In this document: positions 1 through 37,254 of the stretch, in pieces
Layout: every line of letters starts with the position of its first letter
Numbering within the stretch: the stretch's first letter is position 1
From: a virus
DNA: 64,000 nt
IMG/VR virus record: IMGVR_UViG_3300045988_163836
Reading direction: 5' to 3' (one strand)
Translations under genes and position numbers: made by a program
Notes under the pieces: generated by a model
The model's input: only the letters and a program-made list of their open reading frames with translations
What the model was told of the DNA's origin: nothing
Database searches by the model: none

Positions 1-301
1 ATTCTCCAGTATCTTGCGTAGTTGCTTTATTAAAAGTGAATTTAGTACCAGGGGGCGCCTAAATACCTATTTTTTTTACATTATTGAAGCCTTTTAAAAT
101 ATTAACTCCAAAAATATCTATTTTTTTATTTTCATAATCTGTTTCATCATTGGTAGTAGTTTCAGTAGAATCATTTAAATTATTCTGATATACAGCACTA
201 TATACTAATTCAGATAAATCTCCCTATTTAGTAGAAACTAATCCACCAGAACCACCATAGTCCTCTAAATTATAAACAATTTGTTTAAATTGAATTCCCA
301 T
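1..301 (-). CDS. Hypothetical late protein, partial. The start lies at about 301 and the gene runs off the window. TAG is read as sense.
   Basis: An ATG at 299-301 follows AAGGAGG (plus strand 'cctcctta' at 311-318). The ORF stays open apart from in-frame TAGs at about 213 and 43, with the last complete codon at 2-4. It is transcribed immediately downstream of the fiber gene. Confidence 0.4.
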
Positions 302-312
302 TATTTACCTCC

Positions 313-3300
313 TTATACTCTTGTTAAAGCTTCATTTGTTGTAATCGACATATTTCCATTATAAGTTAAAGGAAGAGTATATTGAGTTATAACAAATTCC
401 CCTTGTATATTACTTTTTCTATCATTTATATAAATTAAATTATTAGGTTCTAAATAATATCTTGGCGCACAGTTAATAGTAACAGTTAAATTATAAATTA
501 AATACTAATATAACATTTCTCTTATATAATCAAATGCCGTACTTCCTGTTCCGCTAGAACTAAATAATTTCATTTGCCCCGGTTTTAAAGCACAATAAGC
601 CTAACCTTTTAATGTATAATCTTCTATCTTTTGAATTAAATCTGCTTCCCCAGTATTTTCAAAAAATATGATATCAGGCACTTCTAATTTATATAAAAGA
701 CTCATATTAGTTTTAGTCAATGCTTTAGTACGCCGACCTATTTTATTAACTGAATATCTAGATACTAACTAATCTACATCAATAAAATCTAACCAATATG
801 TTATTAAGCTAGGATCAAGATAAATAGCAGGATTCCATCCAATCCAAGTATCAGGTATGATTTCTTCATTTTGATTTTTTTCAGAAGAATTTTTTGATTC
901 AATCTAATCAATTTGATTCCGCCATTCTTCATGCCAAGTTTCATTCTAAGGATTAAATATTTGTTTACGCCACAGATATTCACCATCTATTTTAGCTAAT
1001 AATTCATCATCATAGTCTCCTTTCTGAGTGCCATTTTCATTATTTAATAAAGCTTGTCTAAATAATTCTTCACGCCATTCATTACAAGGAGTACCAATTA
1101 AAGTAAAATAAAAATTATCTTCATAATCAAAAGGAGGTTCTTTAGGAGTATATGTAATAATTTTAATTTTATTATTATCATTAATAGTAGAAAAATCAAG
1201 AATATTAGAATTATAAGCTTTAGTAATTTCTTCAATAATTTCATTTAATGAATAATTACCATCATCACGCAAAATAAAAATTTTTTTTATTATATCTTCC
1301 TAATCACCTAAGATTTTTAACTAATCTTTTTTACCATCTACTGGATCTAAGAATGGTAACAATAAATTACTTCCTCCCGATGTATTTCCATTTGATGTAT
1401 TATCTTTATTATTATTCTCTTCATTGGGTTTTAATGTAAAACCTGGATCTAAAACATCTAAAGGCATAATTCCATAATTTGGATCTCTAGGAGTAGGACC
1501 AGGTATATTATTATCTTCTGAATTGCCAGGTTTATTTGGCTTAGATGAATCATCTTTAGGAATTTCTTCCATATTTTTATAACTATAAATTAGTTCAATA
1601 TCTGAAGTTAAATCATCTTTATTTGTTTTATAATATTCTAATAATTTTTTAACTAAATCGTTGTGTTCTTCTTCAGTAATAACAGTTTCATTATTTTTAT
1701 TTTTTATTACTGGATAATTATTAGGAAATACATAACTATATTCTGTCTTCTTTTTAGATTCATTGTAACTAATTAATTTATAACTAGCAACAATAGTATT
1801 ATTTATAGAAATTAAATTATTAGAATCAATAAAACTAAAATCATAATCCTTATTTTTTTCATCAAAATTTATATCTTTAATAATTTTAATATAATAATTA
1901 ATTTTAATAGTATTTAAAAAATTTTCTATATTTCTTAATGAAAGTTCTTCAGTTAATTCGTAAACCTAAATCCACTAGCCTTCGCTATCATAATAGCCTA
2001 AAATATTTTTATTATCTATATTTTTTATTATAGTTAAATAATATTCTTTAGATTCATTAATCGTTGTATTATTATTATTATCATCAGACTTATCATTAGA
2101 AGAATTATTATTTTTATTTGCATTATTTTCTTGATCTGGTGGTAACATAAAATCTGGATCTAACACTGTAGAACCTAGCTCTGGTACCATAAAACCTGGA
2201 TCTAATTCTTTTGTATTAGATATTAGCATAATGCCGTAATTTTCTAAATCTCCAGTCCCTTGGCCTTTACGCCACCAAGAGGCAGGAATACCAAAACCCG
2301 GATCTAATGTGTTATCATCTTTATAATTGTCATTTTTATTATTATTATTATTATTTTCATTAGAAGAATTATTATTACTTGGCCAACTATCAGTAGCATC
2401 TTTTTTAGGATAAACACCAAGAGCTAAATGAGTAAAGTCAATAATATCAGTTAAATCTTCAAGATATTGAAATCCTATAATTTCTCCATCTAATAAAGTA
2501 ATTTTATAATATCTTATCTAATTTAAAAATATTATTTTATAATATAAAATAAACTAATCGCCAGTGTAAAAAGAATAATTCTTTAAAATATTTTCAATTA
2601 TATCTTCTTTAATGTTAGATTCAATTACTTCATCCGCCATTTCTTCATGATTAACAGAATAAATAATTTCTAAAGCTTTTTTATCAGGTGTCTAATTATA
2701 ATTGCTTTTTTTATACTCAAATAAATAAAAAGCATGGTCACCATTACCTCGAACTACATCCCACATATATTGATTAGCTAAATCAATTTGAGGTTTTTCA
2801 TCTATAGCTAAATGATACTATATAGTTTTAGTAACTCCATTACTATTAGTTTTATCGCCCCATACAATAAAATCATTTTTTATATTTTCATATTTAGGAC
2901 TATTATAATAAGATAATGCATCTTTAGCATTTGCAAAAGTATAATAATATTTACTATCTGAAAAAGCTTTTATATAATAAGTATCATTTATTTCTGTAAT
3001 AGGAGTATAATAATAATTTAAATAATTCTTTTTCTACTAAAATACAAAATGACCATCTAAATCATAAAAATATTCATAATTTCCTAAAGATTCAATAATT
3101 TTATCAAGGACAGAAGTTACTGTATCTCCCGCAGAAAATACTAATTCTCCTGGATAAGTAAAATCTGTTTCTTGATATCCTACGTCTTGTCCATAAATAA
3201 ATTTATGCTATAAAAAATTTTCATCTTCAGGAGCATTTTCACTAATTACAAAACTTTTATAATCTTTAGAAAACCATATAGGATTTTGGCCCATATATTT

Positions 3301-3918
3301 TGTACTAAGTTTAGCTGTCATATCTACATCATTAATTATAACATTCTACTCTGGTTCTTTGCCAAAATGTGTTACACATTCTTTAATAACCGTAAATATA
3401 GGCACTTGCTCAATTGTAATATCTCCATTTTCATCTTCATATTGTGTCTCATGAAAGGTAACTGCTGAAGGTAATGTACCTCCACAAGTACCATCAAGCA
3501 TACACATTTTATCCTTACCTGAAATAGAAATATTTGCAGCAGAAGCTGTAGTAGAAGAAGTAGCTTGATTAATTACAAATGTTCCAAGAGGAAACCAAAT
3601 AATATCTCCATAGGTTTTATAATCTTCAAATGGATTCTCAAGTCCTACCTCTACTTTTACTTTTTTATTAATTGAAATAATATTTTCAATATTATTAATG
3701 TCATTCTCATTTTCTACACCGCTAATTGTTAGACTAATCGTGCGGCGCAAGGCGGCAGACCCATTAACTGTAATAGAGCCTGCCGTTGCTATACCCTATA
3801 CTTCTCGTATGGGTTTTTCATCAACAAAAGATAAAATGGTAAGTTTGATATAATGTTTTTTTATACGCATTTCATCTAATGCAGTTAAAAACTCACTATC
3901 TTTTAGATATTCTCTCAT
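313..3918 (-). CDS. Tail fiber / receptor-binding-like structural protein of about 1200 aa. TAG is decoded as sense.
   Basis: Hand translation from the ATG at 3916-3918 (RBS GGAG upstream, ATGA overlap with the upstream gene stop). The frame stays open to a TAA at 313-315 if about 10 in-frame TAGs are read as an amino acid. There are N/D-rich low-complexity tracts and repeated LDPGF motifs. Track fragments 946..1272, 1321..1572, 1975..2229 and 3346..3750 all lie in this frame. Confidence 0.5.
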
Positions 3919-6900
3919 TCCGTTTTCTCCTATGATTCATCTTTTTCTTTCTGCTTACCTTTTTTAACTTCCAAAGATGAAACAGATTTATAATTAACTA
4001 TTGCATAAGTAGGTCTAACAAATTCTACTTTAACAATCTCATCTTTCAAAGGATTTAAAATTAATTTATTAGTAGGTCCAATACGTACATGAGTGCCAGG
4101 AGAACTAATATGATAATTACCAGTAGTTGCATCAAGATCATACTCTCTATAAAAAACTAAATCTGTATTAGCATCTGCTTCAATTTCGATACTATCAATA
4201 CCAGTAAAATTATATATAATTAATTGATCTGAACCATTCATCCAAGCATCAGTCTATTTATTTAAAGTTAATCCAGACAAAGGTCTATAATTTTCTAATA
4301 ACTATGTACCAGTTATTAATAATTCTTCAATAGACTCTGTATCATCTTTAACTCTATTTAAAAATTCATTTATATCATTATACAATAAATCAAAAGTAGA
4401 TTCAAGTTTTTCATCACTATAATTATTTAAAATAGAAGTATGTACTTTTTCTTTTATTATATCCATTAAATTTAATGTAGAATATAATCCATAATTATAT
4501 TTTTCATTAACTATCTAAGTATCATCATTTCTAAAGAACTAATAATTATCAAGAATATCTTGAGTATCAGTAAATACTCCACCAAGCTATCCCCATTGTG
4601 CAAATTCACGCTTAGTAACAGTCACCATTTCTAAGAAATCTTCTTCCTCTAAATCAACTATATAATTAATTAAAATAGGGCGAGTAAATTTTAAATACAT
4701 ACTATCAATAATGGCATCATCCAAATGATAAATACGACTGGGCATCATAGAAATTTCTTTACCATTTATTATCATAGTAATAATATTAGTCTAATTTTTT
4801 TCATATTCCTATAAAAGCTATTCACATCTTAATAATTCAACTGCATTAGTTAACTGACCTATCATAGTTGAACTAGTTTTATTTTTTAAATATTCTATTT
4901 TATTTTTAAGATTTAGTTTAGGATACTATTCTACCCAAATCGCTTTTATTCTTCTTACTCGATATTTTCTATCTTCACTTATTTCTTGTTCTTCTTGAAG
5001 TTTTATTGCGTTACAAATGTTATCATAAGTAAGATTAAATTTATTATTATCAACTATAGATAATTTATTATTAGTAATTTCCTGTGCATATTTTCCATTA
5101 AATGTTCGAGCTACTTGCCCAATAACTGTTTTAGTTTTTGTACTAGCATTCTAAATTGCTAATTTAGAATTATTAGACAAAGTAGTTAATGGATTTATCT
5201 AATATAAGATAATATTTTCTGGGGTACAATCAGCTACTTCATAAGCTGTTGAATTAAAATCATAAATCATACGATATAAAGAAGCTTGAGGAGTCCAAGT
5301 AACATTAGTTAAAGTAACTATATGATTTCCTTCAGTTGGTGACTTAAATAATTTATAACCACCATCATTTAAAAATTCTTCTACCCAATGTCTATATATA
5401 CGTTCCATATATATATTATCATTAGTTGGATTAGTATTAAATGTAGAAGCATTTTGAATATTATATTGTCTTATATTATAATCATTGTTATATGGATTCT
5501 ATAAATCACGTTCAAAAGTTTTAATATATTTATCTTTTGAAATAACTATATCTCCATACCAACTATGATAATAACCACCTTTAGCATCATTACGCATTAA
5601 AAAAGAAGAATCAATATCACTTAATAAAGAAATTTTTGCACCTAACTAAAATTCTGCATAATGTGCCAATCCATTACGCAAAATAATCGGATATTTAGAA
5701 TTCAAGCTATCTTGCTTTTGGAATAAAGTAGTATGCTTATAACTATTCATTTTGCAATCAAAATCTAAACGAACTTGAATACCATTATTATAAATATAAC
5801 TATACTAAAAATTAGACCAATGCGCTGGTGATGAATCAATATCATCACTTTCATATTTAGGGGCACTTCTTAATCCTACAGCATTCTATTTCTATAAAGC
5901 ATATTTATATTTAACTCCACTTTCAACAGTAAAATCTTCATATAATAAAGTTAACTTATCATCATAATTAGTTTCATTATACCAATCAAATTGAGCTATA
6001 TCTTTCCATTGAGTATAATTATCAGTTTCACAAGCTCTTGATAAAATAAAAGTACCATCAAGAGATTGATATTTTTCTACATCTATTTCACGTTCTACTT
6101 TTTCACCAGTAATAGTAGTAATAGTTATTTTTTCTTTTACTTCATAAGGATTATTTTTAATATAAATTTCTAAGCTGCCATTTTCATCAGCTCGCAAATT
6201 ATGACTAAAATCTTCAATTGCTTTTATTCTAGTAATTTTACTTAATACATGAGTTTCTATATTATCTTCATTAATATTACCAGTTTGATAAATTATATCT
6301 CCCGCATTATACCCATCTGCATCATCATAATAACCTTTAATAAATTTAGGAGCCTATCCTTTTAATCCAAAATATTCCTTATACATCTAAAAAGCAACTT
6401 GATTTGCTCCGGCTATTTTATTTAATAATATGGTAGATTCAGTATTATCTTTTACTGTAAATACTAAAGTCTATAACTATTTTAAATAATTTTCAGTAAT
6501 AGTAAAATTATAATATTCAGAAGATTTTTGATAATTATTCATTGTAATAACATCAAAAATCAATGAATACATTTTTATTCCAGTCTAATCTAATTGTCTA
6601 TTAAAACTATAAGAGACTAAAGCACTATATTTATCTTTCCCTCCACCATTATACTATAGCCAATCACTCTATAAATATGGCTCAGAACTTGGAGGATTCT
6701 TTGAATTAAAACTGCCTTCATATAATCTAAAACGATATTTATCCAATGGTTCAGTATCGCTTTGATATCCTCCCTCAAATTTAGGGAAACGGCTAACTTC
6801 TATATTATTACTTGATATTAAAATAAATCCTACATCTAATGAAGAAGTATCTTTATTATTTAATATTTCTACAATTGGATCATCAATTGCTTTAGTAATT

Positions 6901-7343
6901 ATAATATTGGACCATTCTGAAAAAGCTTCAGCTACAGTCTAAGATTTTTTCCATTTAAAAAATGAAATTTTATCTGTATAATCTATTTTCCCATAGCCAA
7001 AACGTATCTAAATTTTATAATAAGTATTAGAAACCCAACCTATTGTATCTCCTAATTTAATATCTGAACTATTTACAGTAACTGTATATATTTCATTATC
7101 AGTAGAGGTAGTTGGCTTTTCCATATAAATAATACCATCCCAATATTTATCAGTATTAATTATACTTTTATTATTGGATTGCTATACAAATTTAATTGAG
7201 ATATTCTTTACATCCTCATAATTTAATGATTTAGGTAAAGAAAAATTTATATTAATAGAGGCCGCAGTTGCTAAAAATGCTGGTATTGAACTATCTACAA
7301 TAGGCGGATATACTCTATTTATATTTATTGTGGACGCTGCCAT
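3915..7343 (-). CDS. Large tail/baseplate structural protein of about 1140 aa (TAG as sense).
   Basis: ATG at 7341-7343 preceded by AAGGAGG. The frame is continuous through many TAGs to a TGA at 3915-3917. Track fragments 3930..4241, 4587..4775, 5199..5408 and 5892..6197 are in this frame. Confidence 0.5.
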
Positions 7344-7451
7344 TTATTGACCTCCTTTAACTCTTATTTCTATTTATTTTTAAAAATTATATATTGTAAA
7401 CATACTATTTTGGTCCAAATAAAAAAAAAGAATGATGGATAAAAATCCATC

Positions 7452-10400
7452 ATTCTTCAATATACCAATCACGTAATTTTATATTTTTAGGAGCAATATA
7501 ATCAGATAACTATTGTTTTAAATCAGCATTTGTAGCTATCTCATTTAGCAATTTAGCTACTGTTAAAATATTAGTCACACTTTCTTCTTTTAACTAAATA
7601 GAACCATCAACATTAAAACATAAAGCATCTCCTGCTAATTTTACAACTCCATCAGAACGCAAAATATTGGTAGGAATACCATCTATATCATATTGATATA
7701 ATCCTGAAACAAACCCTGAACTATCTAATTCTTCCGCTGGTTCTTCTTCAGCTTCTAAACTTAATGTCTAAATTTCTAAATCTTTTCCTGGATCTTCGAT
7801 AGGCAAGGTATATTTTCTACGTTTATTTTCCCACAAAGAACCTACATAAGTTTTACCTTCATCTCGCGCCCAAGGCCTACCATGAGAAAACCCTGGATCA
7901 AGAGGCTTTTCAGATTCTACATTATCTTCATCAAGTACGGGTATATTAGTACCATCATTATCTTCATCTGTTATAATAGTAATATCTTTATTATTAAGCA
8001 TTACTATTGGATAAAATAAACTACCTTTATTATCTGGCAAAAAAATCTATAATGCACCCATAGGAACTGTTTTTACTTGGTCAGTGGATTTAGCAAAATA
8101 AGCACCTGGATAATTTTCTTGTGGTCTAAGGTATTGCTATTTTACATTATCAGAATTAGTAGAATTAACTATAATTATATAATCAGTAAGAGACACTGGA
8201 TTAGTAACCTATAATAAATCAATAAATTTTTTACCATCATATTTATACATAAAAGAAATCTATTTATTTATTAAAGAAGGAGTTCCCTTTTCATTATAAG
8301 TAATTTTAGAAGGTATATTAATATTACCAATGCTATTAACTACAAAATTAGTACTAACCATTATAGGCTTGTAATAATATAAAGTCTAATTTGTAATAGC
8401 TTTATTCTCTAACCCTATAGTTACTTTAAATTTTATAAAATACTAACCCTTACAATCTTCAACTGGATTTGAAATTTTAAATACATTTTTTTCTTTATTT
8501 ACTTTTTCACAATCTAAATTGATAGGATCTGCTTCAACAGTTATTTTATATTTATCTGTGACATTACCAACAGCATCCTAATAAGCAGAACCATTTATTA
8601 TTTTATTACCATTATATCTTACTTCTGGCATAAGATAAATCGGTTCATAACCAGACCCACTTTTTTTATTAATAGGTTTAGTATCGAGTTCACTGCCATC
8701 AACATTACAATCTTTAATAATTAATTGATAATCTAAACCACTAACTGTTGAGTCACCTGGTTTAATAAAAACAATACTTTTATTAAACTTAAATTCTTTA
8801 TCAGCTAATGTTATTACTTTTAATGATAAGGTATTATTAGTATAAGTATCTACATATTTAGGTTTAATATAATAATGTAAAGCATTATTAGTTTTATCTA
8901 TCCAAAGCTTTGAAAGCATTGAATTAGTAATTTTAGTAGTAGGATATTCTAAAAGTTCTCCTCCATCAGGTGAATACCAAGTAACACTTTTAACTCCTAT
9001 ATTTTCCTTATCTACGCTAATAGTTGGAGTAATAATTATTTCTTTATTAGCCTAATCTAAAGAAATACTACCATTAACATCATACTAAAAAGTATCTGTT
9101 CCACTAAATACTACTCGCACGGGCGATTCTTGTTTATAAGTAATTAATTTATATTCGCAAGGTACATAATCACCAGTATCTAATTTACTAACACTATAAA
9201 ATATTACATTACCATATTCTAAAAACTAACTTACATCAATCTAACTAACTCCAGTAGATAAAGGTAAATATGATCCATCCATCAAATCAACATACCAATC
9301 AGCTTCATTAATAGTTTCTAATGAATCTACAATAGATAATTTAACTTCATTTTCACTAATAAATTGCGGAATTATAGTAAATCGTTCATTATAATATTTA
9401 ACTACTCTAACATCTTTATATAAAGTAACATTAGAATTATATACTACCACTAATTTATATCGCATCTATTGATATACATCTTTGCCCGAAATAGTTAGTT
9501 CATTAAATCTTACATTAGAACTATCATTAATACATTCCCACCCAGGGCCGCCTATCTAATCATATTTTTCACTACCAGATAGAACTGCCGGATTCTATTT
9601 ATACCAATAACATTTGCAAGTTTTTTCTTCTAATATATTTTTATTAGCATAATAAAAAACGCCTATTAATTTTATTTTATCGGTATCTTGAATTAATGAT
9701 AAACCCTATGGCGCGCTAATACCTACATAATATAAATCTTTAGTAGAATCTTGGACATCAACAAAACTAAGTTTTATATTTTTGACAAAAAGATTAGGTT
9801 CTTTATTATAAACCGCAGTTATCTCACCTTTACCGTTAAAAACAGTATCATATCTTAAAAATCTTTCTTGAAAAAATGTAATTTTTTTTATGCCAATTAA
9901 ATTAATTCCAGTTAAATCATAAATTACATACTATGGTGAAAATACTTCATAATCGTAAATACTACCAGAGAAATTTATAATATCTAATCTACGACTAAAA
10001 ACAATACCTGTATCTTTTTCTACAAAATCAATTTTTAATCCATAATTACCAGCCATCATTGTTCCATAAAACTATGTTCTAAAATCGGCCTAAATCATAA
10101 TACGAGGATAAGTAGTTAATAAACTGGTAAAAATTACATCTTCAGTGAGATTATCATTTTCATAAATTACCTATTCATAATATTTACTTTTATCTTCTTC
10201 CTCTTCTATCGGTTCTTTACTATCTTCAGCCTAAGTATCAGTTGCAGTACCTTCTTTTGTATCATTTGATGAATTATCTTTATCATCTTTTGGAGTTTCT
10301 TCTTCTTCCTTTTTAGGTTCTGGGGCATAAGCTAAGATACCATATTCATTACCATTGCTATATATTTCACTTATTTCAACTACTTGCTAAGATAAATCGC

Positions 10401-10746: not shown

Positions 10747-10802
10747 ATTAACTCCTTTCTCTCCTCAAAAATGAGGAGGAAATTAATCCTCCTCATTTAG
10801 AT

Positions 10803-20844: not shown

Positions 20845-20850
20845 AAAATT

Positions 20851-22232: not shown

Positions 22233-22380
22233 ATCTTTTCAATAAGTTCATCCTCTGTGAGAGGAGCTTTATTTTCTTTTTGTTGAGAAATTTTATTTTC
22301 TTTTTTCGACTTTTTAATTACGACTTTTTCTACTTCAAACGCTTTAATAGGCCGTGGAGCATTAGAGCTAATAATCATAA

Positions 22381-23466: not shown

Positions 23467-23540
23467 AGGTTATTTCCTCCTTAATAAAATTTAAATTTTA
23501 TTTATATAACTCGCTACAAAAATTAGTAAAGCGATTTATA

Positions 23541-24870: not shown

Positions 24871-24891
24871 TCTCCGATTTCTCCTTCATCT

Positions 24892-26777: not shown

Positions 26778-26799
26778 ATAAAACCCTCCTTATTTATAA

Positions 26800-27366: not shown

Positions 27367-27394
27367 TTTTTTTATTCTCCTTTTACTCATAAAA

Positions 27395-27430
27395 CAAAAT
27401 AGGGGAGAAGGGGATTTCCCCATTCTCCCC
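27395..27430 (-). terminator. Rho-independent terminator after the capsid gene.
   Basis: The minus strand reads aggggagaatggggaaatccccttctcccct followed by a T-run. Confidence 0.55.
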
Positions 27431-27466
27431 TAAAAATATTATATATTAATTTTTAGTTAATATCAA

Positions 27467-28603: not shown

Positions 28604-28620
28604 TTTTCTTCTCTCCTTTC

Positions 28621-29397
28621 TTACGCGATTCGCATAATCTTAACGCCCTTCTGATGATCAGGCATTTCATAAACCTTGACAACCTACCATTGGATAGAGC
28701 CATCACCAGATTTAGAAAGCATACCATCAGCAGCACGAGGACTTAAAACATCGCCAACTGCAAGAGTAGCTTCGGCAATAGTATTAGTCGTAAAAATATC
28801 ACCAACATTGGTCTTGAAAACACGAGGAACCATATTAGTGCCAGCAGGCATTCTACGAGCCTCATAAGGACCATCAAAATGTAAAGGATCTTCTTCATAG
28901 AAGAGTTCACGAATATCAGGACCAGCAGTAACATCATCATACTCATAAGTATGTTGTACACCCTGACTATCTGTAATAGTCATAGAAGTATTACCTTCGG
29001 CATCCTTGCCGTTTAAATAGCGAGCCTGACGTGTACCAATTTCCTGCTTGCCATCATAGGGGCTGTAATAACGAGCCTGATAATCGTCTTTGCGCATAGC
29101 AAATTCGCAATCAGCTTGTTCCTCACGATAAAGTTTAATTTCATTATAAACTAACATCCATTCGCCCTTGCCAGTGAAATCAACTTCACCAAGGTCACCA
29201 GCAGCATAGTCATACTTAACAAACTGGCCATTTTCAAGAAGCTGGATATTTTTGTTAGCAGGTAATTGAGCGTAAATCTGACCAGTGCGCTGAGCACTTA
29301 AATGATTAGGCTCAACCTGACCATAGCCATATTCAACGTAGCCGCCCTTAACAGCAGATACGCCGCTTAGGTCTTTAAGCATATCTTTTAAAAGCAT
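28621..29397 (-). CDS. Capsid-associated or decoration protein candidate, about 258 aa.
   Basis: Track ORF 28684..29397 plus a single TAG read-through to a TAA at 28621. It lies between the scaffold-like gene and the capsid gene. Confidence 0.4.
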
Positions 29398-29445
29398 TAG
29401 GTTTTCCTCCTTAAAAATTTATTATTCCATAGTTTTCGCAACATC

Positions 29446-30987
29446 CTATACTGCCTTAATCCAAGCAGGAATGCTATCGTCATTTACATCATTATTAATA
29501 TTATATGTAAGTGGGTCATTTTCTTTCTTTTCATTGGTATCGAAATTGACCTTATTGCGAACACAGATAATAGAAAGCTTTGCTTCAATATCATCTAATG
29601 AATATGTATCAATATTAGCAACAACATCTTTCTTATCATCATCAGATAACATATAGAAACTATTAATCATTTCTTGCTTCTTTTCTCTTTCAGCCTCAGT
29701 TTTGAACTGAGTTAAAGAAGCAAGTTCTTGTTCGAGCTGTGTTTTCTTTTCAACTAATTCATTATATTTAGTTTCAAGTGCAGCATACTCATCTTTTAAT
29801 AAACCATATTCAACTACATCTTCCAAAGAGTACTTAGCTTTCTTTTTCTTTTTTTTCTCTTCGTCATCCTCAGTTGGTTCTTCTTCTTCATCAGAAGTAT
29901 CAGTTGGTTTATTTTCGGGAGTGTCCTTCTTTTCACCATCTTTTGGCTGGTCTTTAGAAGGATCTTCCTTATTATTATCATTATTCTCTTTATTGTCTTT
30001 ATCTTTTTCGTCCTTTTTTTTCTTCGCAAATTCTGCGACTTTTTCAGGATCGAATTGAGGATTATCAGAAACAGAATAATCAGTTAATTCAGAAACTTCG
30101 CCAGGAGTGAAAGTATCATTCTCCATAGAAAAATCTAAACGAACGAACTTATCATCTTCCTTGACAATAGCAAATAAATTACCATTGTCTTCGCAAACTT
30201 CTTCAATCATTGCATTACCTGCTCCGAAGCCCTTAATGTAAGAATAAAGAGAAGTCCAAATGGAATCACCAATCTCCACACTATATCTTGTGAACACTTT
30301 TGTTCCTCCTTTACCTTCTAATAATTCTTTTAAATCTTTCATCATAGAGAATAATTGCTCATTAAATTTATCACTAAATGAGAAATGCATCGTAGGTGCA
30401 GTAATATTAGCTCCTTCGAAGCAAGGTTCACAATCTTCTCCAAGAATACAAAGTTTCTTAATTATTGCTTCATTTATAATAAAAAATTCGGGCATTCCAT
30501 TCTTATCTTTCGACCAATACGCATTAATTTTTTCATCATCTAATTCCATAGATTGATTATTGCCTTTTTCAATAATGCGCTTACTTTCTGGATAGATATC
30601 TGTCCAGATATAGCCTTCAGTCATTAAATATTCATGCTCGTTTTTTCCATCATCTAAGAATTTCTAAAACCAAACTTTTGCCCCTAAATCTACAAAACCA
30701 TAAGGAACAGTGGTATCTTTTACATCAAATTTACCATTGGAAATATCAATTACACGGTTATGTTCTTCATAATCTCCATTAGCTTCATTGTAATAACCAA
30801 CAATAGGGCTACCTGGTAAACTCTATGCTAAATCTTTAGCAACTTCTTTTGTTATAATACTTCTATTGCGATTTGGTTTATCACTAACATAGCAGACCTT
30901 AATCTAACACTTAGAAATTAAAGGATTGATTTTAGTGATATTAATAAACTCAACAGGAGTATCTAACTTAACACTTGTATGTCTCAC
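29446..30987 (-). CDS. Prohead protease/scaffolding-like protein. The C-terminal 392 aa are acidic and coiled-coil; the N-terminal roughly 120 aa need a GTG start and three TAG read-throughs.
   Basis: Track ORF 29446..30624 (coiled-coil, K/E/D-rich). The frame stays open upstream to a GTG at 30985-30987 that follows GGAGG. The functional call rests on position and composition only. Confidence 0.4.
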
Positions 30988-30999
30988 TATAAATCCTCC

Positions 31000-32685
31000 T
31001 TATTTACCAGCAGCTTGACGATTAGCAATTGTTTTTTCGCTCTTTTCATCGTTAGCTTTTTCTGGTCGGCCACCCTCTTTAGTTTCTGTTTTCACAGTGG
31101 CATTTCCACTTGTTTTATTTTGAGAAGTGTTAGAACCATTCTAATCTTTTTTACCCAAAATATCTTCACCATTTAATGTAGAACTCATAAGAGGAGGTAT
31201 CATAACTTCGCTTAAATGTAAAACTTCGTTTTCAAAATGAGCTGTATTAAGAATAAAACTCTATGATTGTCCAAGAGCAATCTAAGGTAACATTTTAGAG
31301 AAACCAATCTAAGTTTGCTCTTTATACATTTTAGATAAATCTTTATAATTATACTATGTAGTTTCTAACATATAGAATTTATAATTATATTTTTTCTAAA
31401 CATTCAGGACTGATAATATTCTATCAAAAAATATGTTGAATTGCAAAATTAAATTACGCATGGTAGATTCATCATCTAAGATAGACTTTTCTAAGGCGAT
31501 ATTACCATCTGTATTAAATAAATTGCGTGAAACGCCAAATGCATTATATACAGTTCGTTCAACACGCTCTAATTCATCTGTAGTGGCAGAAGTATTTTTG
31601 TCAGAAGTATCAATAGCATCTACATCAGCAAAAGTAGTTAATACATCAACACCTACTGCTCTACGAAGCATTTCAACAGCATTATTATGGATATCACGAG
31701 CTTCATCAATATCAAAAATCAAATCACCATTTTTATCAAGCGGTAATTTCTAAACTAAAATTTTTAACAATTTCTGCATTTGTTTGCGGCGGTCCAAATC
31801 TTGTGCAGCATCCAAATCTAAAATCGCAGGAATAGCATTTACAAATAATGGAATATCATTAGTACCATTTAGAGCAAACTTAATAGTGCTTTGTGGATCT
31901 AACAAATACCAACTACCAGTATTATCACCAGCTACATCAGGTAAAAGTTTACCAGCTTTATAGAGACGATAACCTATTGTAAATTCATCAGGGAATAATT
32001 TTAATACTCTATTACGGTAATTAGTATCCACAAAAGTATCAAAGTATCTCATATCAAATTCAATAGCAGGTAAATTACCTACTGAATATCTTGAACGGCA
32101 ATACTCAATAGGAAGTTGCTATAAAATTAAGCCAGTACTTGAGGGAACAATATAGGCATAATAAGCTCCACATTTGATAACTTCAAGAGCCATATCGCCA
32201 CAAATTTTCTTAATATAAGAATTATCTAAATAATTTAAAATTCGCCAGAAATCTTTTACTGCTTTTGTTTCATTAATATCTTTAACAGCAGAACCATCAG
32301 TATTATTAGACTAAATAGCAATAGCCCAATCATAACGATACATATTTGCAAAATAATTACATACTCTTTGATAAATACCACTTACTCTAAAAAAGAAACG
32401 TGATATTCTTCGCAGTTCTTGAATATCATTACGAATTAAAGCATCCATAACCATAGGTTTTGTATAAATACGTTCACGGCTATATTTTTCACTACGGCGA
32501 CCGTAAGTGTCCCATCTAAAAGATCCAAGATTTAAGACAGCATCATCTAATGTCTTAACCCCGACTTTAATCTTCTTATACTCATTTGGGCCAACGGCAG
32601 AATACTCACGTACTCCTCCAGTTATGTCAAAACCTTTTTTATGTATCTATTCATTTCTGGTTAATTCTTCCTTTTCTAATTCCAT
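31000..32685 (-). CDS. Portal protein candidate of about 560 aa (TAG-recoded).
   Basis: ATG at 32683-32685 with an RBS. It ends at a TAA at about 31000. Track fragments 31750..32052 and 31396..31722 are in this frame. The gene order (TerL, small gene, this gene, scaffold, capsid) fits a portal. Confidence 0.5.
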
Positions 32686-32702
32686 ACTTCACCTTCTTTC
32701 AA

Positions 32703-33059
32703 TTAATATCCAGCTTTTCGCATTATATAATCATAAGAAATTAAATTTTCTTCTGTATAAGGAATTTCTATTAAATGTAAATCATGTAAAGCACAGAATC
32801 TACGTTTTTGATTATCATTATATTGCTATTGATATAATCCACGTTTTCCGCCAAATTTATTACTAGCTTCATAATGCTATTTCCCTTGATATTCAATTAA
32901 AAAATCAATATTATTATCATCATCAAATATGACAAAATCAAAACGTAAAGGACGACCATTATGTGTTTTTAAATCTGGAAATATATATTCCATCTTAAAA
33001 TTCAGGCCGGCTTCCTCTAAGATTTCTCTAATCTTAATCTCCGCACGACTGGCATCCAT
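32703..33059 (-). CDS. Small endonuclease-like protein of about 118 aa with a 'FDFVIFDD...IEYQGxQH' motif (Vsr/DUF559-like PD-(D/E)XK fold?).
   Basis: Track ORF 32877..33059 extended through two TAGs to a TAA at 32703. The motif resembles the core of the Vsr/DUF559 restriction-endonuclease fold. Judged from memory only. Confidence 0.3.
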
Positions 33060-33147
33060 ATATTAAGTCTCCTTTCTTATCTACAAATAAATTCCTCTTA
33101 TTATTCTTTTAAAAATTAATTTAAAAGAATAATAAGAGTTGCCCGGC

Positions 33148-34899
33148 TTAATTCATAAACATCCAATCAGCAGCCCGGAATTTTTTCTTCTTTTTATCTT
33201 CTTCTACTTTTTTTATATAATATAATCCATACTCTAATGCAGAGAATTTATCTTTTTTAATACTTTTATTAGCTTGTTTTAAAATTATATTTAAACCTTC
33301 ATTTTCTTCACGCAGATTCATAATCTCTTCACGCAATGAAGTAGTTAAACTGAATGGTCTTAAATAATCAGATCGCGCTTCTGTGGTCATATTCTAGCCC
33401 ACTTTAGTAGTTAATAATTTCTATTTAGCAGTTCGTTCATCAATTAAAAATTTAATCTTACCAGAATTTAATACTGACTAAGTAATACTATGGGCTTCAG
33501 TATTAATTGGTGCATTAGCTTTCATTAAATATAAAACATCTAATTCTGTACTATTAGTTTTATATTTTTTATATTCTTGAACTGCATCATCCTGAGTTCC
33601 ACCATAAACTCCAAAATCAGGAATTACTTCAGAAGTTTCAGGATTAATCTATGGCTTAACCATAAAATCTACTAAACCAACACCAAGTCCATTAGCATCT
33701 ATTACAATTCTGCGAGCTTTATATTTATAATATAATTTTTTAAGTTTAATAGCCTAATCTTCAAAGTGTGTATCATTCATAGTATAAATATTAACTAAAC
33801 TTTTAATTGGCTCACCATGCGGTTGCGGCGTTACTTTAAATACACAAACAACAGTATCGCATCCTTTACGGCCTACGTCAACACTTAATATATAATAAGA
33901 TAATTTACTTGAACGGCCAGAAGCTTCGTATTCAGGCTAATTCAGTATTCTATTTCTATTAAATATTTCTGCATTAAAGAAAGCGTCTTCAACAGTACCA
34001 GACCAAATTGATTCATATTCACGTTCGAAAGAAGCTTCATTATAAGTTCCTTCATTTTTTTGGTCAGTAATAAATGTTTTCTGTTGTAATCCAACAGCAA
34101 CAGGAGTTCGCCAAGTTCCACCTAATACCATACATCTATCAGGCTATGTAATCATACGAACTAATAAACCAATTAATCTATCATAAGGATAAGTATTTTT
34201 ATAGCCAGCAGTAGTAATATAAATCTATGATTTATTTACCGCTTCTTCTTCATGAGTTGTACCATCCTTAGCTCTACGAGGAATAGCCATAACTGGTATA
34301 ATGACTTCGCGTAAAATCTAATCATCAATACCTACACATTCTTCCATTAGACCACCATGACGACGCTGACCACGAGTACTTTCTCTCGCAGCTAAATTAT
34401 CAAGGACAGAACCATTCTTAAATACATAACGTACTTTATCTTTACTCTCTTGGCTCTTACCTCGGCCCCAATCAATTTCGCGTTTAAAACTTGGTATTAA
34501 ATCACAAATTTCATTAACTTTATCATGTAGAATACTCGCGCCTTGTTCCTTACCACCCGAAGTAACAAATAAATGAACACCAGGATAAAGAATACATCTA
34601 ACCATTAATGCCATAACTGATAAGAATGATTTAGAATAGGCACGAGGGAAAACTGCATAAACGTACTGATAGCGCATTACACATCTTAAAAAAACACGCT
34701 AATAGAAGAAAAATTTAAATTCTCCTTCTTTCTATTCTGTACGTGTTCCTCGTACTAAAAAATCAACAAATAAATCTGGATATTCGCGCCAAAAGGCAGT
34801 ATATTTACGAATGACTGGCATTACGGCATTAATACGTTCTTCAGAAAGACCTATTTTTTTCCTACTTGTAGATAGGTCAAGTAAATCTTGTAACGCCAT
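33148..34899 (-). CDS. terL: Terminase large subunit of about 583 aa (TAG-recoded).
   Basis: ATG at 34897-34899. The N-terminal ATPase-region fragment is track 34318..34677. The C-terminal nuclease-like region has 'YILSVDVGRKGCDT', 'RIVIDANGLGVG' and 'EREYESIWSG' (tracks 33937..34131 and 33148..33390). About 9 in-frame TAGs. Ends at a TAA at 33148. Confidence 0.75.
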
Positions 34900-36065
34900 T
34901 AATCTTCCCTATCAGAGAAAGCATCTATATCTAACTCTGTTTCATTATCTAAAAATTCACTAAAGTCTTCAATATCTTTATCTTCTAAAGTTTTTTCAAT
35001 GTCTTCAATAGACATATCAACATCATCAACAATTGTATCTTCGACGTTTTCTTTAGCCTATTCATCTTCTTTAGCGTTTTGTTTTAATGCCTAATCAATC
35101 ATATTGCCAAGATTAGTTTCTCGTTCAATTAAAGTGCGTGTATATTTTTGCATATCTTTAATTGTAAAATCTACTTTATCATTTGGAGTATCAATGTAAT
35201 ATCTTTCGATATAACCTTGTTTCTCACACATTTCTATTAATTCACCAACAGAATCAATGAAATCGCCAGACTCTTCTTTATTCTATGCGGCAGTAAATTT
35301 GCCTGATTTCATTAAAGAATCATACATTTTAATCATCTTTTGAGCGCCGTCTACATCACCTATATCTAATAACTAATTAGATTTTAATGATGTCTTACAG
35401 GCAAGTTTTAATGTATCAATATGGCCTGCTGACTAAATATCGTAAGACTACATCATTTCATTAAATAATTGCTCTAAGCGTACCCATTCATCAGGGCTAT
35501 AACCTTTTCCCCATTTTAAATAAAGGTATCGTTTATCTTCGTCTGTTAGCTCCGCGCCCAAATCAGGAACCTCAAAATCTAATTTATCTTTAAAATAATC
35601 TTCTGCAGAATTTCCAAAATCTAGGGGAGGAGGGGCAGGAGGAGGCGGCTCTTTTAATTCTTCTGATGGCAAAGCAAATGAAGCACGTTGAATAGCCGTA
35701 GTAATATCTTGAACATCATATCCCTATTGCTTCATTGTTTCTTCTATTTTTTTATTTTGTAAGTCTTGCAAGAATTGACTATCTTTCCATCTATAATCTT
35801 TCCATTGATTTAATTTCATTGCAGAGAGATAGCGACCTAATATTGTCATTCCAGTGACTTTCGCTCTATCCTTCGCAAATTTACCCATTAACTAATTCCA
35901 CTAATCAGGAATGTAAGGAACATCACATTCTTGCAATATCCATAGATAAGTATCCGGATTCCAATTATCTACATGCATTGTTATACATTTTTTACATTTT
36001 GGTAATTTACCATCATTAGGATATTTATCTAAATTATTAGATGTATAAAACTAAGTTCCATCCAT
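34897..36065 (-). CDS. Hypothetical DNA-packaging-associated protein of about 389 aa (small-terminase candidate). It has an N-terminal Cys cluster (KCKKC), a proline-rich tract and an acidic C-terminus.
   Basis: ATG at about 36063-36065. About 9 in-frame TAGs. Its TAA overlaps the TerL ATG (taATGg). Upstream it is bounded by a TGA at 36114-36116, which shows that TGA is a real stop here. Confidence 0.35.
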
Positions 36066-36131
36066 AGTTTTATTACATTTTTCACAGTAATATTGTTTAC
36101 CTTCGCTGGACAATCAATATTTCTCCTTTCT

Positions 36132-36818
36132 TTAGGATTTCATTTTTTCTTTACGAGAACTATTTCGGCATTTTTTGCATATACTATAAAATCCATCTTT
36201 ACTTGTTTTATTATAGGAAAAATATTTATTGTGAGCCAATTTAATTTGCCCACATCTACTGCATTTTTTATACTTACCTTTTTCTTGAGTTGTATAATAC
36301 CATTCTAAATATTTATCAACAGCTTTATCAGCAATAAGCTTTGGTATTTTATTGCGGAATAAACTTGATATATATTCTAAGCTGTGAGTAATATTAAATT
36401 CTTCTTGTAAAATTTTTTGAATCTCTATATTTTGTAATCCATCAATTTTACATTCTACAATGCGCATTAACATAGGATAATCAGCCAAGGCTTCATCGCA
36501 AATATTTTCAAAATCATAAATAAGATACCAAGTATCATCTTCAAAACGATCCCAACTATCTTCTTTTAATCGAGAATAATTACATAAGATACAAGAGCAA
36601 ATTTCAGGATTCATCAATGAGATTCCTTCTGGAATTGGATATCCATCATCATCAAATACTTTTACGTCTTCATCTAATTTAATTTTATACTTAGATCGTG
36701 TAAGCTTTACTGGTACTATTGGTTTTCGATAAGCATTTTTAATAATATATTGGTCTTTGCGCATTTCTATTAATGCCTTTTTTATAGTGAAAGCATCTTT
36801 ACCACTTACTACTTTCAT
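36132..36818 (-). CDS. Zinc-ribbon protein of 228 aa, a candidate late-gene regulator. It has no TAG and is readable in the standard code.
   Basis: Intact track ORF with a GGGAAG RBS before the ATG at 36816-36818. It carries a C-terminal CxxC...CxxC and an internal CxC..C. It is the first long gene of the minus-strand operon and contains no TAG in 228 codons. Confidence 0.45.
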   Translation of the reverse strand: MKVVSGKDAFTIKKALIEMRKDQYIIKNAYRKPIVPVKLTRSKYKIKLDEDVKVFDDDGYPIPEGISLMNPEICSCILCNYSRLKEDSWDRFEDDTWYLIYDFENICDEALADYPMLMRIVECKIDGLQNIEIQKILQEEFNITHSLEYISSLFRNKIPKLIADKAVDKYLEWYYTTQEKGKYKKCSRCGQIKLAHNKYFSYNKTSKDGFYSICKKCRNSSRKEKMKS

Positions 36819-36905
36819 TTTTGCTTCCCAAGTTGTAATAGCGTCTTTTAATTGTTTTAAGCTAGGAATTTCTTCTAAATCTTTTTTTGTAATTGTAACT
36901 TTTGG

Positions 36906-37190
36906 CTAAAATATCATATTTTTATCACTATTAATTAAATTATATATACCATCTTCACCATTCTCTAACTGGGAAACAAGTCCTTCGAAAGAAGTTTCAC
37001 GTTTATTAACTGTCATTAATCTATTATCAGTTAATATTTTCTTTTCTTTTTTTTCTTGTTTCTCCATACATAGAATTAAATAATCTGCGAGGATTTCTAA
37101 ATACTTTTCATTAGGATTTGGATTTTCCTCTAAAATTTTTTTTACTAATTCATTTCGTTCTTCAGGAGTTTCAAGAGTATAATCTAATTT
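36906..37190 (-). CDS. Small protein of about 94 aa with a TTG start after GGAGG. It terminates at TAG, assuming the standard code.
   Basis: Track ORF 36906..37253. RBS GGAGG with 8 nt of spacing to a TTG at about 37188-37190. It ends at the TAG at 36906-36908. If TAG were sense it would fuse in frame with 36132..36818. Confidence 0.35.
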   Translation of the reverse strand, partial: KLDYTLETPEERNELVKKILEENPNPNEKYLEILADYLILCMEKQEKKEKKILTDNRLMTVNKRETSFEGLVSQLENGEDGIYNLINSDKNMIF

Positions 37191-37225
37191 TATCAAGATT
37201 AATACCTCCAATCCTTCTAAAAAAA

Positions 37226-37254
37226 TTATAACACAAAAAATTTGCAAAGTCAAC
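37226..37254 (-). promoter_or_regulatory. Sigma70-like promoter for the minus-strand regulatory/late operon (TTGACT-17-TATAAT with a TG extension).
   Basis: The minus strand reads ttgactttgcaaattttttgtgttataat. It is almost identical to the promoter at 20816-20844. Confidence 0.55.

What the first reader, a model, noticed from the sequence alone, without database searches (positions are those of the whole stretch)
1..37250. Two genetic codes in one phage genome: TAG is a sense codon across the late/structural half
Every long minus-strand gene from the packaging protein (start about 36065) down to position 1 carries many in-frame TAGs and nothing else that breaks the frame. I count about 9 in TerL, about 10 in the portal, many dozens in the tape measure gene, and about 10 in each large tail gene.

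Three observations argue for recoding rather than pseudogene decay:
- Hand translation across the TAGs gives coherent, domain-consistent proteins. Examples are the TerL motifs, the GIY-YIG and HNH motifs, and a contiguous 3100-aa tape measure protein.
- TAA and TGA are still used as real stops. TGA closes genes at 36114-36116, about 7452 and 3915-3917, and TAA closes most other genes.
- Neighbouring gene boundaries show the classic ATGA/TAATG start-stop overlaps.

In contrast, about 50 plus-strand early genes (37366..53474) have no internal TAG. Two of them, 38113..38313 and 51672..52034, actually terminate at TAG. This is the pattern seen in stop-codon-recoded phages (code 15, TAG read as Gln), where recoding delays structural and lysis protein synthesis until a phage suppressor tRNA is made.

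I found no suppressor tRNA (anticodon CUA), release factor or aminoacyl-tRNA synthetase in this window, so these are predicted to lie elsewhere in the genome.
Basis: partly seen in the sequence, partly recalled or inferred. Interest (0 to 1): 0.9.

Follow-up and report, generated by a model that had tools for sequence, protein, structure and literature searches.

The report
Amber-recoded late genes, gut phage

Summary
With TAG read as sense, the minus strand from 313 to 37196 is tiled by 22 genes. Coding density rises from 50% under code 11 to 97% under code 15. These genes carry 257 in-frame TAGs and no internal TAA or TGA. One of them is a 3,100-aa tape measure gene with 108 TAGs.

TAG means glutamine. 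In 97-99% identical relatives, 24 of 33 changed TAG positions are CAA or CAG. Against standard-code phages, TAG positions align to Gln as often as real Gln codons do.

The early plus-strand genes are almost TAG-free. One of them ends at a TAG that is TAA in orthologues.

The predicted suppressor exists. A contig 99.99% identical to the window encodes a canonical tRNA(CUA) about 59 kb beyond the window's right end. No release factor was detected.

- TerL is at 33148-34899.
- Recoding also covers an HNH gene on the plus strand and the GIY-YIG and DUF6291 genes at 52-55 kb.
- The major capsid gene has no TAG.

The phage has an SPbeta-like structural module and is distantly related to the phAss-1 group. 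Block-wise code 15 recoding with suppressor tRNAs is established, so this is a new member of a known kind. The timing function remains an inference.

The parts
313..37196 (-). Late (packaging, head, tail) module read in code 15: 22 genes with 257 in-frame TAG; stops are TAA (19) and TGA (3)
   Evidence: Pfam YonG/YonD/YonB/YomW/YomV/YomU on identical relatives
10793..20116 (-). Tape measure gene, about 3,100 aa, 108 in-frame TAG
   Evidence: PHROG tape-measure families at E 2e-42. N-terminus, middle and C-terminus align collinearly with the VRE9_4 tape measure gene.
313..10746 (-). Three large tail / baseplate genes (313-3918, 3915-7343, 7450-10746) with 18, 27 and 25 TAG
   Evidence: similarity to tail-region proteins of Enterococcus phage VRE9_4
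22381..23466 (-). Tail tube-like virion protein (YomU-like), 2 TAG
   Evidence: PHROG 2729 at E 8e-54; PF27173 on relatives
27467..28603 (-). YonB-like major capsid candidate with no TAG. The neighbouring head genes 26800-27366 and 28621-29397 have 0 and 1 TAG.
31000..32685 (-). Portal gene, 10 TAG
   Evidence: PHROG 2739 at E 5e-77
33148..34899 (-). Terminase large subunit (YonF-like), 11 TAG
   Evidence: PHROG 2; 43-47% identity to TerL of Geobacillus phage E3 and Enterococcus phage VRE9_4 in one HSP across all TAGs
34899..36113 (-). YonG-like packaging-associated gene, 10 TAG.
   Evidence: PF27269 on relatives; PHROG 3314
36132..37196 (-). Sigma-factor-like gene at the head of the late cluster, 1 TAG; ends with TAA at 36132-36134
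   Evidence: PHROG 5767 at E 2e-46
37366..52157 (+). Early block of small genes in standard code. GC is 36-42%, CAG is preferred over CAA, and there are 2 in-frame TAG in 25 genes.
52032..52034 (+). TAG acting as a true stop of early gene 51672..52034
   Evidence: The orthologous codon is TAA in L249, L252, L253 and L255, and the downstream frame diverges.
38311..38313 (+). TAG near the end of an AbrB/MraZ-like gene (38113..). Stop or Gln is unresolved; a TAA follows 9 codons later.
52260..52880 (+). HNH + NUMOD4 homing endonuclease with 4 in-frame TAG; absent from some relatives
   Evidence: Pfam; presence/absence
53839..54489 (-). GIY-YIG homing endonuclease, 10 TAG over the full 216-aa ORF; the shorter 168-aa call (53839-54345) has 9 TAG and no CAA or CAG
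54775..55296 (-). DUF6291 gene, 9 TAG and no CAA or CAG
55860..63661 (+). Second standard-code early block (includes the RNA ligase-like gene 57822-59192); 1 in-frame TAG in 19 genes

Best explanation
The window is about one third of a roughly 188-kb siphovirus from human gut metagenomes. It has an SPbeta-like structural module.

Its early genes are written in the standard code and can be translated by the host as soon as the DNA enters. At least one early gene still terminates at TAG.

Its packaging, head, tail and homing-endonuclease genes use TAG for about 45% of their glutamine codons. In the relatives examined, so do its tail-fibre, radical-SAM and some replication genes outside the window. 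These genes yield full-length protein only when TAG is decoded.

Decoding is provided by a phage-encoded tRNA with anticodon CUA. It has a normal cloverleaf, U1/U72, G73 and an encoded CCA end. It sits in a tRNA cluster about 59 kb from the window's right end. It competes with host release factor 1 and inserts glutamine.

**Shown:** the recoded reading frames, the Gln meaning of TAG, TAG as a stop in one early gene, and the presence of the tRNA in the same genome type.

**Inferred:** that the tRNA is charged with Gln, that it is expressed before or with the late genes, and that the arrangement serves to hold back late, lysis and endonuclease proteins until the code switch has happened.
For: - **ORF tiling and density.** Coding density for 1-37250 is 49.8% under code 11 and 96.6% under code 15. 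The late genes hold 257 TAG and no internal TAA or TGA.
- **Collinear homology.** Alignments to standard-code phages run straight through the TAG positions.
- **TAG aligns to Gln.** 16.5% of 327 aligned TAG positions pair with Gln, against 17.6% for true CAA/CAG positions and 5.1% background.
- **Synonymous-type exchange.** In 97-99% identical relatives, 24 of 33 changed TAG positions are CAA or CAG, and 22 window CAA/CAG positions are TAG there. CAA is two mutations away from TAG, so mutational proximity alone does not explain this.
- **TAG-free orthologue.** A TerL orthologue with no TAG (L243, 69% identity) has Gln at 6 of the 11 window TAG positions.
- **TAG as stop.** The stop of 51672..52034 is TAA in orthologues.
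- **Suppressor tRNA.** An identical 75-nt tRNA(CUA) occurs in five further contigs (a sixth differs at one base). Two of these contigs are 99.99% and 99.88% identical to the window. It scores 49.2 bits on the Rfam tRNA model.
- **Literature.** The same pattern is described by Borges et al. (10.1101/2021.08.26.457843), Babkin et al. (PMC10607447) and Peters et al. (PMC9523058; per its abstract, metaproteomic evidence for code 15 in crAss-like phages).
Against: - There is no protein-level evidence for this phage.
- The amino acid carried by the tRNA is not shown. Its acceptor stem (C2-G71, C3-G70) differs from that of E. coli tRNA-Gln.
- No RF2, anti-RF1 factor or GlnRS was found (Pfam on the larger window proteins; motif scan of about 150 kb), so how RF1 competition is overcome is unknown.
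- About 37 kb of the genome was not examined.
- Some replication genes left of the late module also carry TAG, so "early = standard, late = recoded" is only approximate.
- The major capsid gene has no TAG, so recoding is not needed for every late protein.
- The timing of tRNA expression is unknown.
Confidence: 0.85

Rival explanations
1. The distribution of TAG is a by-product of AT-biased mutation rather than a timing device. Once a suppressor tRNA is present, CAG drifts to TAG wherever selection on translation efficiency is weak. On this view the block pattern reflects composition and expression level, not regulation.
For: - Late genes have low GC (25-34%) and few CAG (51 CAG against 262 CAA). 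Early genes are 36-42% GC and prefer CAG (56 against 22).
- The most highly expressed late genes, the capsid candidate and its neighbours, have 0-1 TAG and keep CAG.
- TAG positions turn over quickly between close relatives.
- The degree of recoding varies among relatives with 65-80% identical TerL.
- Borges et al. propose low GC as the evolutionary entry route.
Against: - Early genes are almost TAG-free, although off-frame TAG trinucleotides are common there (6-9 per kb).
- Homing endonucleases use TAG for essentially all their Gln codons, which looks selected.
- One early gene uses TAG as its stop.
Confidence: 0.3
2. TAG is decoded as something other than glutamine, for example pyrrolysine (ARAGORN labels the tRNA 'Pyl'), Glu, Lys, Tyr, Leu, Ser or Trp.
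For: - ARAGORN names any CUA tRNA as tRNA-Pyl.
- K and E are the next most frequent residues at TAG positions.
Against: - Gln is the top residue at TAG positions, and the profile matches that of real Gln codons, including the K and E neighbours.
- Exchanges are dominated by CAA and CAG.
- The tRNA has an ordinary cloverleaf with normal D and T arms, unlike tRNA-Pyl.
- The CUA tRNA of relative L127 closely resembles the tRNA-Gln(UUG) of the same locus in the acceptor stem.
Confidence: 0.04
3. The TAG-interrupted frames are decaying pseudogenes, or sequencing or assembly artefacts.
For: Under code 11 the region looks fragmented, with 50% coding density.
Against: - Only TAG interrupts the frames. 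TAA and TGA never do across about 11,900 codons.
- A 3,125-codon frame free of TAA and TGA is effectively impossible by chance at 33% GC.
- The same genes, with conserved TAG positions, occur in hundreds of independent assemblies.
- The genome encodes the matching tRNA.
Confidence: 0.01
4. The whole genome, and perhaps its host, uses code 15 throughout. There is no switch, and the early genes simply happen to lack TAG.
For: Public gene calls for these contigs were apparently made with one code for the whole contig. They read through the TAG of the 51672 gene, giving 159 aa.
Against: - There are 2 TAG against 78 CAA+CAG in the early block, where about 36 would be expected at the late-gene rate.
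- The TAG of 51672..52034 is orthologous to TAA stops.
- No bacterium is known to read TAG as Gln (general knowledge).
- A phage-encoded suppressor would be unnecessary in such a host.
Confidence: 0.03

Closest known systems
Stop-codon-recoded gut phages described by Borges et al. [quoted passage not shown]
   Same: - TAG is read as Gln in structural and late genes, while early genes stay in standard code.
- The phage encodes a suppressor tRNA(CUA).
- The genome has low GC.
- Homing endonucleases are strongly recoded, as reported there for an intron endonuclease in Agate phages.
- Recoded modules are spread over a large genome.
   Different: I could not place this phage in any of the named clades because no sequences from that study were available to compare. 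No release factor was detected here, whereas a few Lak and Agate genomes carry RF2.
phAss-1 / proposed Phassvirus group (Babkin et al. 2023, PMC10607447; OQ749652)
   Same: - Human-gut siphoviruses related to SPbeta-like phages.
- Tape measure protein of about 3,150 aa.
- TAG in TerL, portal, tape measure and tail fibre genes.
- tRNA-Sup(CTA) genes and no dedicated aaRS.
- A Clostridia-type host is suspected.
   Different: - TerL is only 41.6% identical, and there was no megablast match to any INPHARED record.
- The genome is about 188 kb against 133-138 kb.
- One CUA tRNA was found per genome here, against two or three there.
- The window's phage is therefore not a member of that proposed genus.
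crAss-like phages using code 15 (Peters et al. 2022, PMC9523058; Mgcod block-wise codes, 10.1101/2022.06.29.495998)
   Same: Dual coding in blocks within one genome. Per the Peters abstract, there is metaproteomic evidence for code 15 in crAss-like phages.
   Different: Those phages are not close relatives (crAss-like phages belong to the order Crassvirales, PMC12386605) and infect Bacteroidetes hosts (Borges et al.). No proteomic evidence exists for the present lineage.
SPbeta-like phages of Bacillota (SPbeta, Geobacillus E3, Enterococcus EF1/VRE9_4, Brevibacillus Sundance)
   Same: Shared structural module (YonG, YonF/TerL, YonD, YonB, YomW, YomV, YomU and a giant tape measure protein), with TerL 35-47% identical.
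   Different: Those phages use the standard code throughout.
E. coli supE (amber suppressor tRNA-Gln, anticodon CUA)
   Same: A tRNA with a CUA anticodon that inserts Gln at UAG in competition with RF1 (textbook knowledge).
   Different: supE is a host mutant allele giving partial suppression. Here the tRNA is a phage gene and hundreds of essential codons depend on it.

Membership tests
Code 15 (TAG to Gln) recoded phage with block-wise dual coding | Conserved phage genes are interrupted only by in-frame TAG, and reading TAG as sense restores long tiled ORFs | tested here: met
   Coding density rises from 49.8% to 96.6% in 1-37250. The late genes hold 257 TAG and no internal TAA or TGA.
Code 15 (TAG to Gln) recoded phage with block-wise dual coding | TAG positions correspond to glutamine in homologues | tested here: met
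   54 of 327 aligned TAG positions pair with Gln, the same rate as true Gln codons. TAG exchanges with CAA/CAG in close relatives. A TAG-free TerL orthologue has Gln at 6 of 11 positions.
Code 15 (TAG to Gln) recoded phage with block-wise dual coding | Part of the genome stays in standard code, with TAG absent from frames or used as a stop | tested here: met
   The early blocks hold 2 and 1 in-frame TAG. The TAG at 52032-52034 is orthologous to TAA.
Code 15 (TAG to Gln) recoded phage with block-wise dual coding | Phage-encoded suppressor tRNA with anticodon CUA | tested here: met
   None is present in the window. One is present in contigs 99.99% and 99.88% identical to the window (L258:13459-13533, L262:4946-5020), scoring 49.2 bits on the Rfam tRNA model.
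Code 15 (TAG to Gln) recoded phage with block-wise dual coding | Gln is actually incorporated at TAG in phage proteins | not testable with these tools
   This needs mass spectrometry. Per its abstract, PMC9523058 provides such evidence only for crAss-like phages.
Code 15 (TAG to Gln) recoded phage with block-wise dual coding | Accessory code-change genes such as RF2 or an aaRS (found in a minority of such phages; not defining) | tested here: not met
   The larger window proteins are not RF or aaRS by Pfam. No GGQHVN motif occurs in six-frame translations of about 150 kb. About 37 kb was not examined.
SPbeta-like siphoviruses (structural module) | YonG / YonF(TerL) / YonD / YonB / YomW / YomV / YomU gene order and a giant tape measure protein | tested here: met
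   Pfam families on near-identical relatives appear in window order. The tape measure gene is confirmed by PHROGs.
Proposed genus Phassvirus (phAss-1) | Nucleotide identity of about 80% or more with phAss-1, and shared synteny | tested here: not met
   No megablast match was found in the phage collection that holds OQ749652. TerL is 41.6% identical.
Pyrrolysine decoding of UAG | tRNA-Pyl architecture and pyl genes | tested here: not met
   The tRNA is a standard cloverleaf, and TAG aligns with Gln. The pyl genes were not specifically searched for.

The most novel reading that the evidence does not exclude
The code switch may be organised as a small RNA island. In every close relative examined, the CUA tRNA sits between a ROOL RNA (320 bits) and a RAGATH-33 RNA. 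Two unrelated CUA-tRNA alleles occupy the same syntenic slot in 95-98% similar genomes. The sigma-like regulator at the head of the late cluster usually carries a TAG. If these large structured RNAs take part in making suppression efficient, for example by acting on RF1, the ribosome or tRNA processing, then late transcription would itself be gated through the recoded sigma-like gene. That would be a new layer of the phage code-switch mechanism and would give ROOL a function.
Probability: 0.06. Interest if true: 0.7.

Novelty: new member of a known kind. Interest (0 to 1): 0.3.

Why it matters
**Annotation.** Under the standard code, half of the late region falls apart into fragments. Two PHROG families of unknown function match the two halves of TerL and may themselves be such fragments.

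**Biology.** This adds a widespread, roughly 188-kb SPbeta-like gut lineage to the list of phages that switch the meaning of TAG during infection. It offers clean material for testing the timing hypothesis:
- a single identifiable suppressor tRNA;
- a TAG-terminated early gene;
- homing endonucleases written almost entirely with TAG for Gln;
- capsid genes that avoid TAG.

It does not change what is known about the phenomenon.

Tried and rejected
- **No close GenBank relative.** Megablast of 10 kb against GenBank phages found nothing. No closely related annotated genome could be used.
- **Window scans.** ARAGORN and Rfam on the window found nothing.
- **Walking out of the window.**
  - The left flank, down to about -27 kb, has no tRNA.
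  - The first tRNA array, about 26-30 kb to the right, has no CUA tRNA.
- **Substitute decoders considered in that first array and rejected:**
  - A tRNA-like gene with a possible UUA anticodon. It is fused and probably dead in one relative.
  - A conserved 44-nt hairpin with CUA in its loop but no D or T arms.
  - A 146-nt tRNA with a nested insert.
  - A class II tRNA with a CCA anticodon.
- **Custom CUA stem-loop scan.** The first version found nothing. A relaxed version later found the second allele in L154 that ARAGORN had missed.
- **Cluster representatives.** Look-ups of P0123 and P0124 gave only short contigs. Cluster members had to be listed to reach the 188-kb contigs.
- **Host assignment.** MAG titles are contradictory (Mollicutes, Acutalibacteraceae, Treponema, Bacteroidales, Clostridium), so they were not used.
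- **Release factors.** The GGQHVN motif scan found nothing.
- **Clade assignment.** Placing the phage in a named Borges clade was not possible without their sequences.


Full report

The window has 32.6% GC. Under the bacterial code the longest ORF anywhere in it is 456 aa. If only TAA and TGA are stops, 19 long ORFs tile the minus strand from 313 to 37445. The largest has 3,125 codons and 109 in-frame TAGs.

A simple greedy gene caller gives these coding densities:

| Region | Code 11 | Code 15 |
|---|---|---|
| 1-37250 | 49.8% | 96.6% |
| 37251-53600 | 76.8% | 79.9% |
| 53601-55800 | 38.5% | 77.0% |
| 55801-64000 | 88% | 91% |

Making TGA the sense codon instead gives 54% for the first region.

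The 22 late genes contain 257 TAG, 262 CAA and 51 CAG. They end with TAA (19) or TGA (3), never with TAG. Twenty-five plus-strand genes with ribosome-binding sites between 37.3 and 52.2 kb contain 2 in-frame TAG against 78 CAA+CAG. About 36 would be expected at the late-gene rate.

The window has no tRNA and no Rfam match.

**2. Corrections of detail.**

- The terminase large subunit is 33148-34899, with 11 TAG. The gene that starts near 36065 is YonG-like.
- The three large tail genes have 18, 27 and 25 TAG.
- TGA at 36114-36116 is intergenic. The sigma-like gene upstream ends with TAA at 36132-36134.
- Recoding is not confined to the minus strand or to 1-37250:
  - The HNH/NUMOD4 homing endonuclease at 52260-52880 (+) has 4 TAG.
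  - The GIY-YIG endonuclease at 53839-54489 (-) has 10 TAG.
  - The DUF6291 gene at 54775-55296 (-) has 9 TAG.
  - The last two have no CAA or CAG at all in the gene calls (the GIY-YIG call there is the shorter 53839-54345, with 9 TAG).
- Conversely, the YonB-like capsid candidate (27467-28603) and the gene next to it have no TAG.

**3. What the genes are.**

PHROG and Pfam assignments give an SPbeta-like structural module. In order it contains a sigma-like gene, YonG-like, TerL (YonF-like), a small endonuclease-like gene, portal, YonD-like, YonB-like, YomW, YomV, the YomU tube protein, a tape measure gene of about 3,100 aa, and three tail proteins of about 1,100-1,200 aa each.

The tape measure ORF aligns collinearly at its N-terminus, middle and C-terminus with the tape measure gene of Enterococcus phage VRE9_4. 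So the 108 TAGs lie inside one gene.

The nearest annotated phages by TerL are:
- an unannotated 12-kb gut contig (62%);
- Geobacillus E3 (47%);
- Enterococcus VRE9_4, H1 and EF1 (45%);
- phAss-1 (41.6%).

**4. What TAG means.**

Window proteins with X at TAG positions were aligned to four standard-code phages. TAG positions pair with Gln in 54 of 327 cases (16.5%). True CAA/CAG positions pair with Gln at 17.6%, and the background Gln frequency is 5.1%. The next most common partners, K and E, are the same for both classes. In TerL, 16 of 44 aligned TAG positions pair with Gln. No stop is ever aligned to a TAG.

In relatives 97-99% identical, 186 of 219 TAG positions are conserved. Of the 33 that changed, 24 are CAA or CAG. 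Twenty-two window CAA/CAG codons are TAG in the relatives. CAA is two mutations away from TAG, so this is exchange among synonymous codons rather than mutational proximity.

A TerL orthologue that has no TAG at all (L243, 69% identity) has Gln at 6 of the 11 window TAG positions.

**5. Is TAG also a stop in this genome?**

The early gene 51672..52034 ends at TAG. In four orthologous contigs the same codon is TAA and the downstream frame diverges. This TAG is therefore a real terminator.

All available relatives are nearly identical there, and a TAA follows nine codons later.

**6. The suppressor tRNA.**

Near-identical TerL proteins occur on many contigs of 185-195 kb. I walked outward from the window through related contigs.

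- The left flank holds more recoded tail and lysis-type genes, then DNA polymerase III alpha and other replication genes. Some of the replication genes carry TAG.
- On the right come more standard-code early genes.
- Next is a first tRNA array without a CUA tRNA.
- Then come recoded tail-fibre-like and radical-SAM genes.
- Last is a second tRNA cluster containing a 75-nt tRNA with anticodon CUA.

This tRNA has a normal cloverleaf, U1 opposite U72, G73 and an encoded CCA end. It scores 49.2 bits on the Rfam tRNA model.

Using cluster members to reach the long ENA contigs, the identical tRNA was found in two contigs that are effectively the window's own genome:
- BRIT16-1_SAMN02333978 scaffold_35 (188,115 nt) differs from window 44119-54469 by one base in 10,351.
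- k119_314482 (188,240 nt) is 99.88% identical over window 44119-64000.

On the circular map the tRNA lies about 59 kb beyond the window's right end.

A 95-98% similar genome carries a different CUA tRNA at the same syntenic position, which ARAGORN missed. More distant relatives also carry CUA tRNAs. The one in L127 resembles the tRNA-Gln(UUG) of the same locus in the acceptor stem.

No release-factor motif was found in about 150 kb. About 37 kb was not examined.

**7. Mechanism.**

*Shown:* two codon regimes in one genome, TAG = Gln, TAG = stop in one early gene, and a cognate tRNA in the same genome.

*Inferred from established models* (Borges et al., 10.1101/2021.08.26.457843): host ribosomes translate the standard-code genes at once. 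TAG-containing genes yield only fragments until the phage tRNA(CUA) accumulates and outcompetes RF1. This would tie virion, lysis and homing-endonuclease production to the code switch.

*Rival reading:* a neutral drift explanation keeps real weight.
- Late genes are much more AT-rich and have lost CAG (51 CAG against 262 CAA). Early genes prefer CAG (56 against 22).
- The presumably most expressed late genes avoid TAG.
- TAG positions turn over quickly.

*Context:* the base after sense TAG is enriched for A and depleted for G relative to CAA/CAG codons (p = 4e-4). This is a weak hint of selection on termination context.

**8. Comparison with what is known.**

- Block-wise stop-codon recoding with phage suppressor tRNAs is well described for crAss-like phages, Lak phages and six further clades (Borges et al.).
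- Annotation tools exist for it (Mgcod, 10.1101/2022.06.29.495998).
- Per the Peters abstract, code 15 has metaproteomic support in crAss-like phages (PMC9523058).
- It has been reported in the SPbeta-related phAss-1 group, which shares the roughly 3,150-aa tape measure protein and tRNA-Sup(CTA) genes (PMC10607447).
- In Dutch cohorts, 285 of 1,899 terminal-repeat phage vOTUs were predicted to be TAG-recoded (PMC9610469).
- The public protein collection already holds full-length, code 15 translations of this phage's TerL.

The present lineage is not a Phassvirus: TerL is 41.6% identical and there is no nucleotide match. I found no paper describing it. It is a new member of a known kind.

**9. 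Verdict.**

The phenomenon is already established, so interest is modest.

Noticed in passing
window 26800-29397 (-) versus 313-20116 (-): TAG density is graded. The capsid candidate and its neighbours have 0-1 TAG and keep CAG. The tape measure and tail genes use TAG for about half of their Gln codons. This suggests that TAG decoding carries a cost in highly expressed genes.
   Followed up: partly
window 51672-52880: The HNH/NUMOD4 endonuclease gene is present in some near-identical genomes and absent in others. Genomes with it have TAG as the stop of the upstream gene; genomes without it have TAA.
   Followed up: partly
window 37250-52200 versus 1-37250: Early genes have 36-42% GC and prefer CAG (56) over CAA (22). 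Late genes have 25-34% GC and prefer CAA (262) over CAG (51). GC skew flips at about 37 kb and again around 54-56 kb, following gene orientation.
   Followed up: partly
L153:14563-15156 and L153:17062-17174 (same in L154): A full-length ROOL RNA (Rfam RF03087, 320 bits) lies just upstream of the suppressor tRNA(CUA), and a RAGATH-33 RNA (139 bits) lies just downstream.
   Followed up: no
L153:16049-16123 versus L154:18851-18922: Two unrelated CUA-tRNA sequences occupy the same syntenic slot in genomes that are 95-98% identical around it. The second has an odd T-loop and is missed by ARAGORN, but scores 38.9 bits on the Rfam tRNA model.
   Followed up: partly
L102:16165-16310, 17135-17205, 18980-19050, 19905-19990; L113:7910-7955: The first tRNA array of relatives holds several odd tRNA-like genes:
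- a 146-nt tRNA whose anticodon-loop insert is itself an acceptor-like minihelix ending in GCCA;
- a tRNA with the anticodon loop UGAAAGA;
- a tRNA-like gene with a possible UUA anticodon;
- an 86-nt class II tRNA with anticodon CCA that weakly hits the tRNA-Sec model;
- a conserved 44-nt hairpin with CUA in its loop.
   Followed up: partly
window 33148-34899 (TerL): PHROG families 15503 and 24618, both labelled 'unknown function', match the N-terminal and C-terminal halves of TerL at E 4e-63 and 8e-42. They may have been built from TerL fragments split by TAG or by endonuclease insertions.
   Followed up: no
L152:14066-19164 and L153:10001-13184: A cluster of radical-SAM, glycosyltransferase and SPASM-like genes, all with in-frame TAG, lies between the two tRNA clusters in relatives.
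   Followed up: no
L156:1159-6185 and L104:132-5691: To the left of the late module, some replication genes are recoded (a 580-aa protein with 14 TAG, a 510-aa protein with 4) while the 1,115-aa DNA polymerase III alpha has none. The standard/recoded split does not follow a simple early/late line.
   Followed up: no
L241, L247 (CAMELE010000019.1, CAMELE010000001.1): A GTDB species-representative MAG titled 'uncultured Mollicutes bacterium' contains contigs of this phage lineage (TerL 98% and 77% identical). This is probably a binning artefact of low-GC phage DNA.
   Followed up: no
window late genes (313-37196): The base after sense TAG is A in 40% and G in 23% of cases, against G in 38% after CAA/CAG (chi-square p = 4e-4). 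This is a possible bias toward weaker termination contexts.
   Followed up: partly
L015:17798-18479 (left of the window): Small genes just beyond the window's left end are very TAG-rich (8 TAG in 143 codons, 7 in 78). They sit next to a holin-like membrane protein and may belong to a lysis cassette.
   Followed up: no
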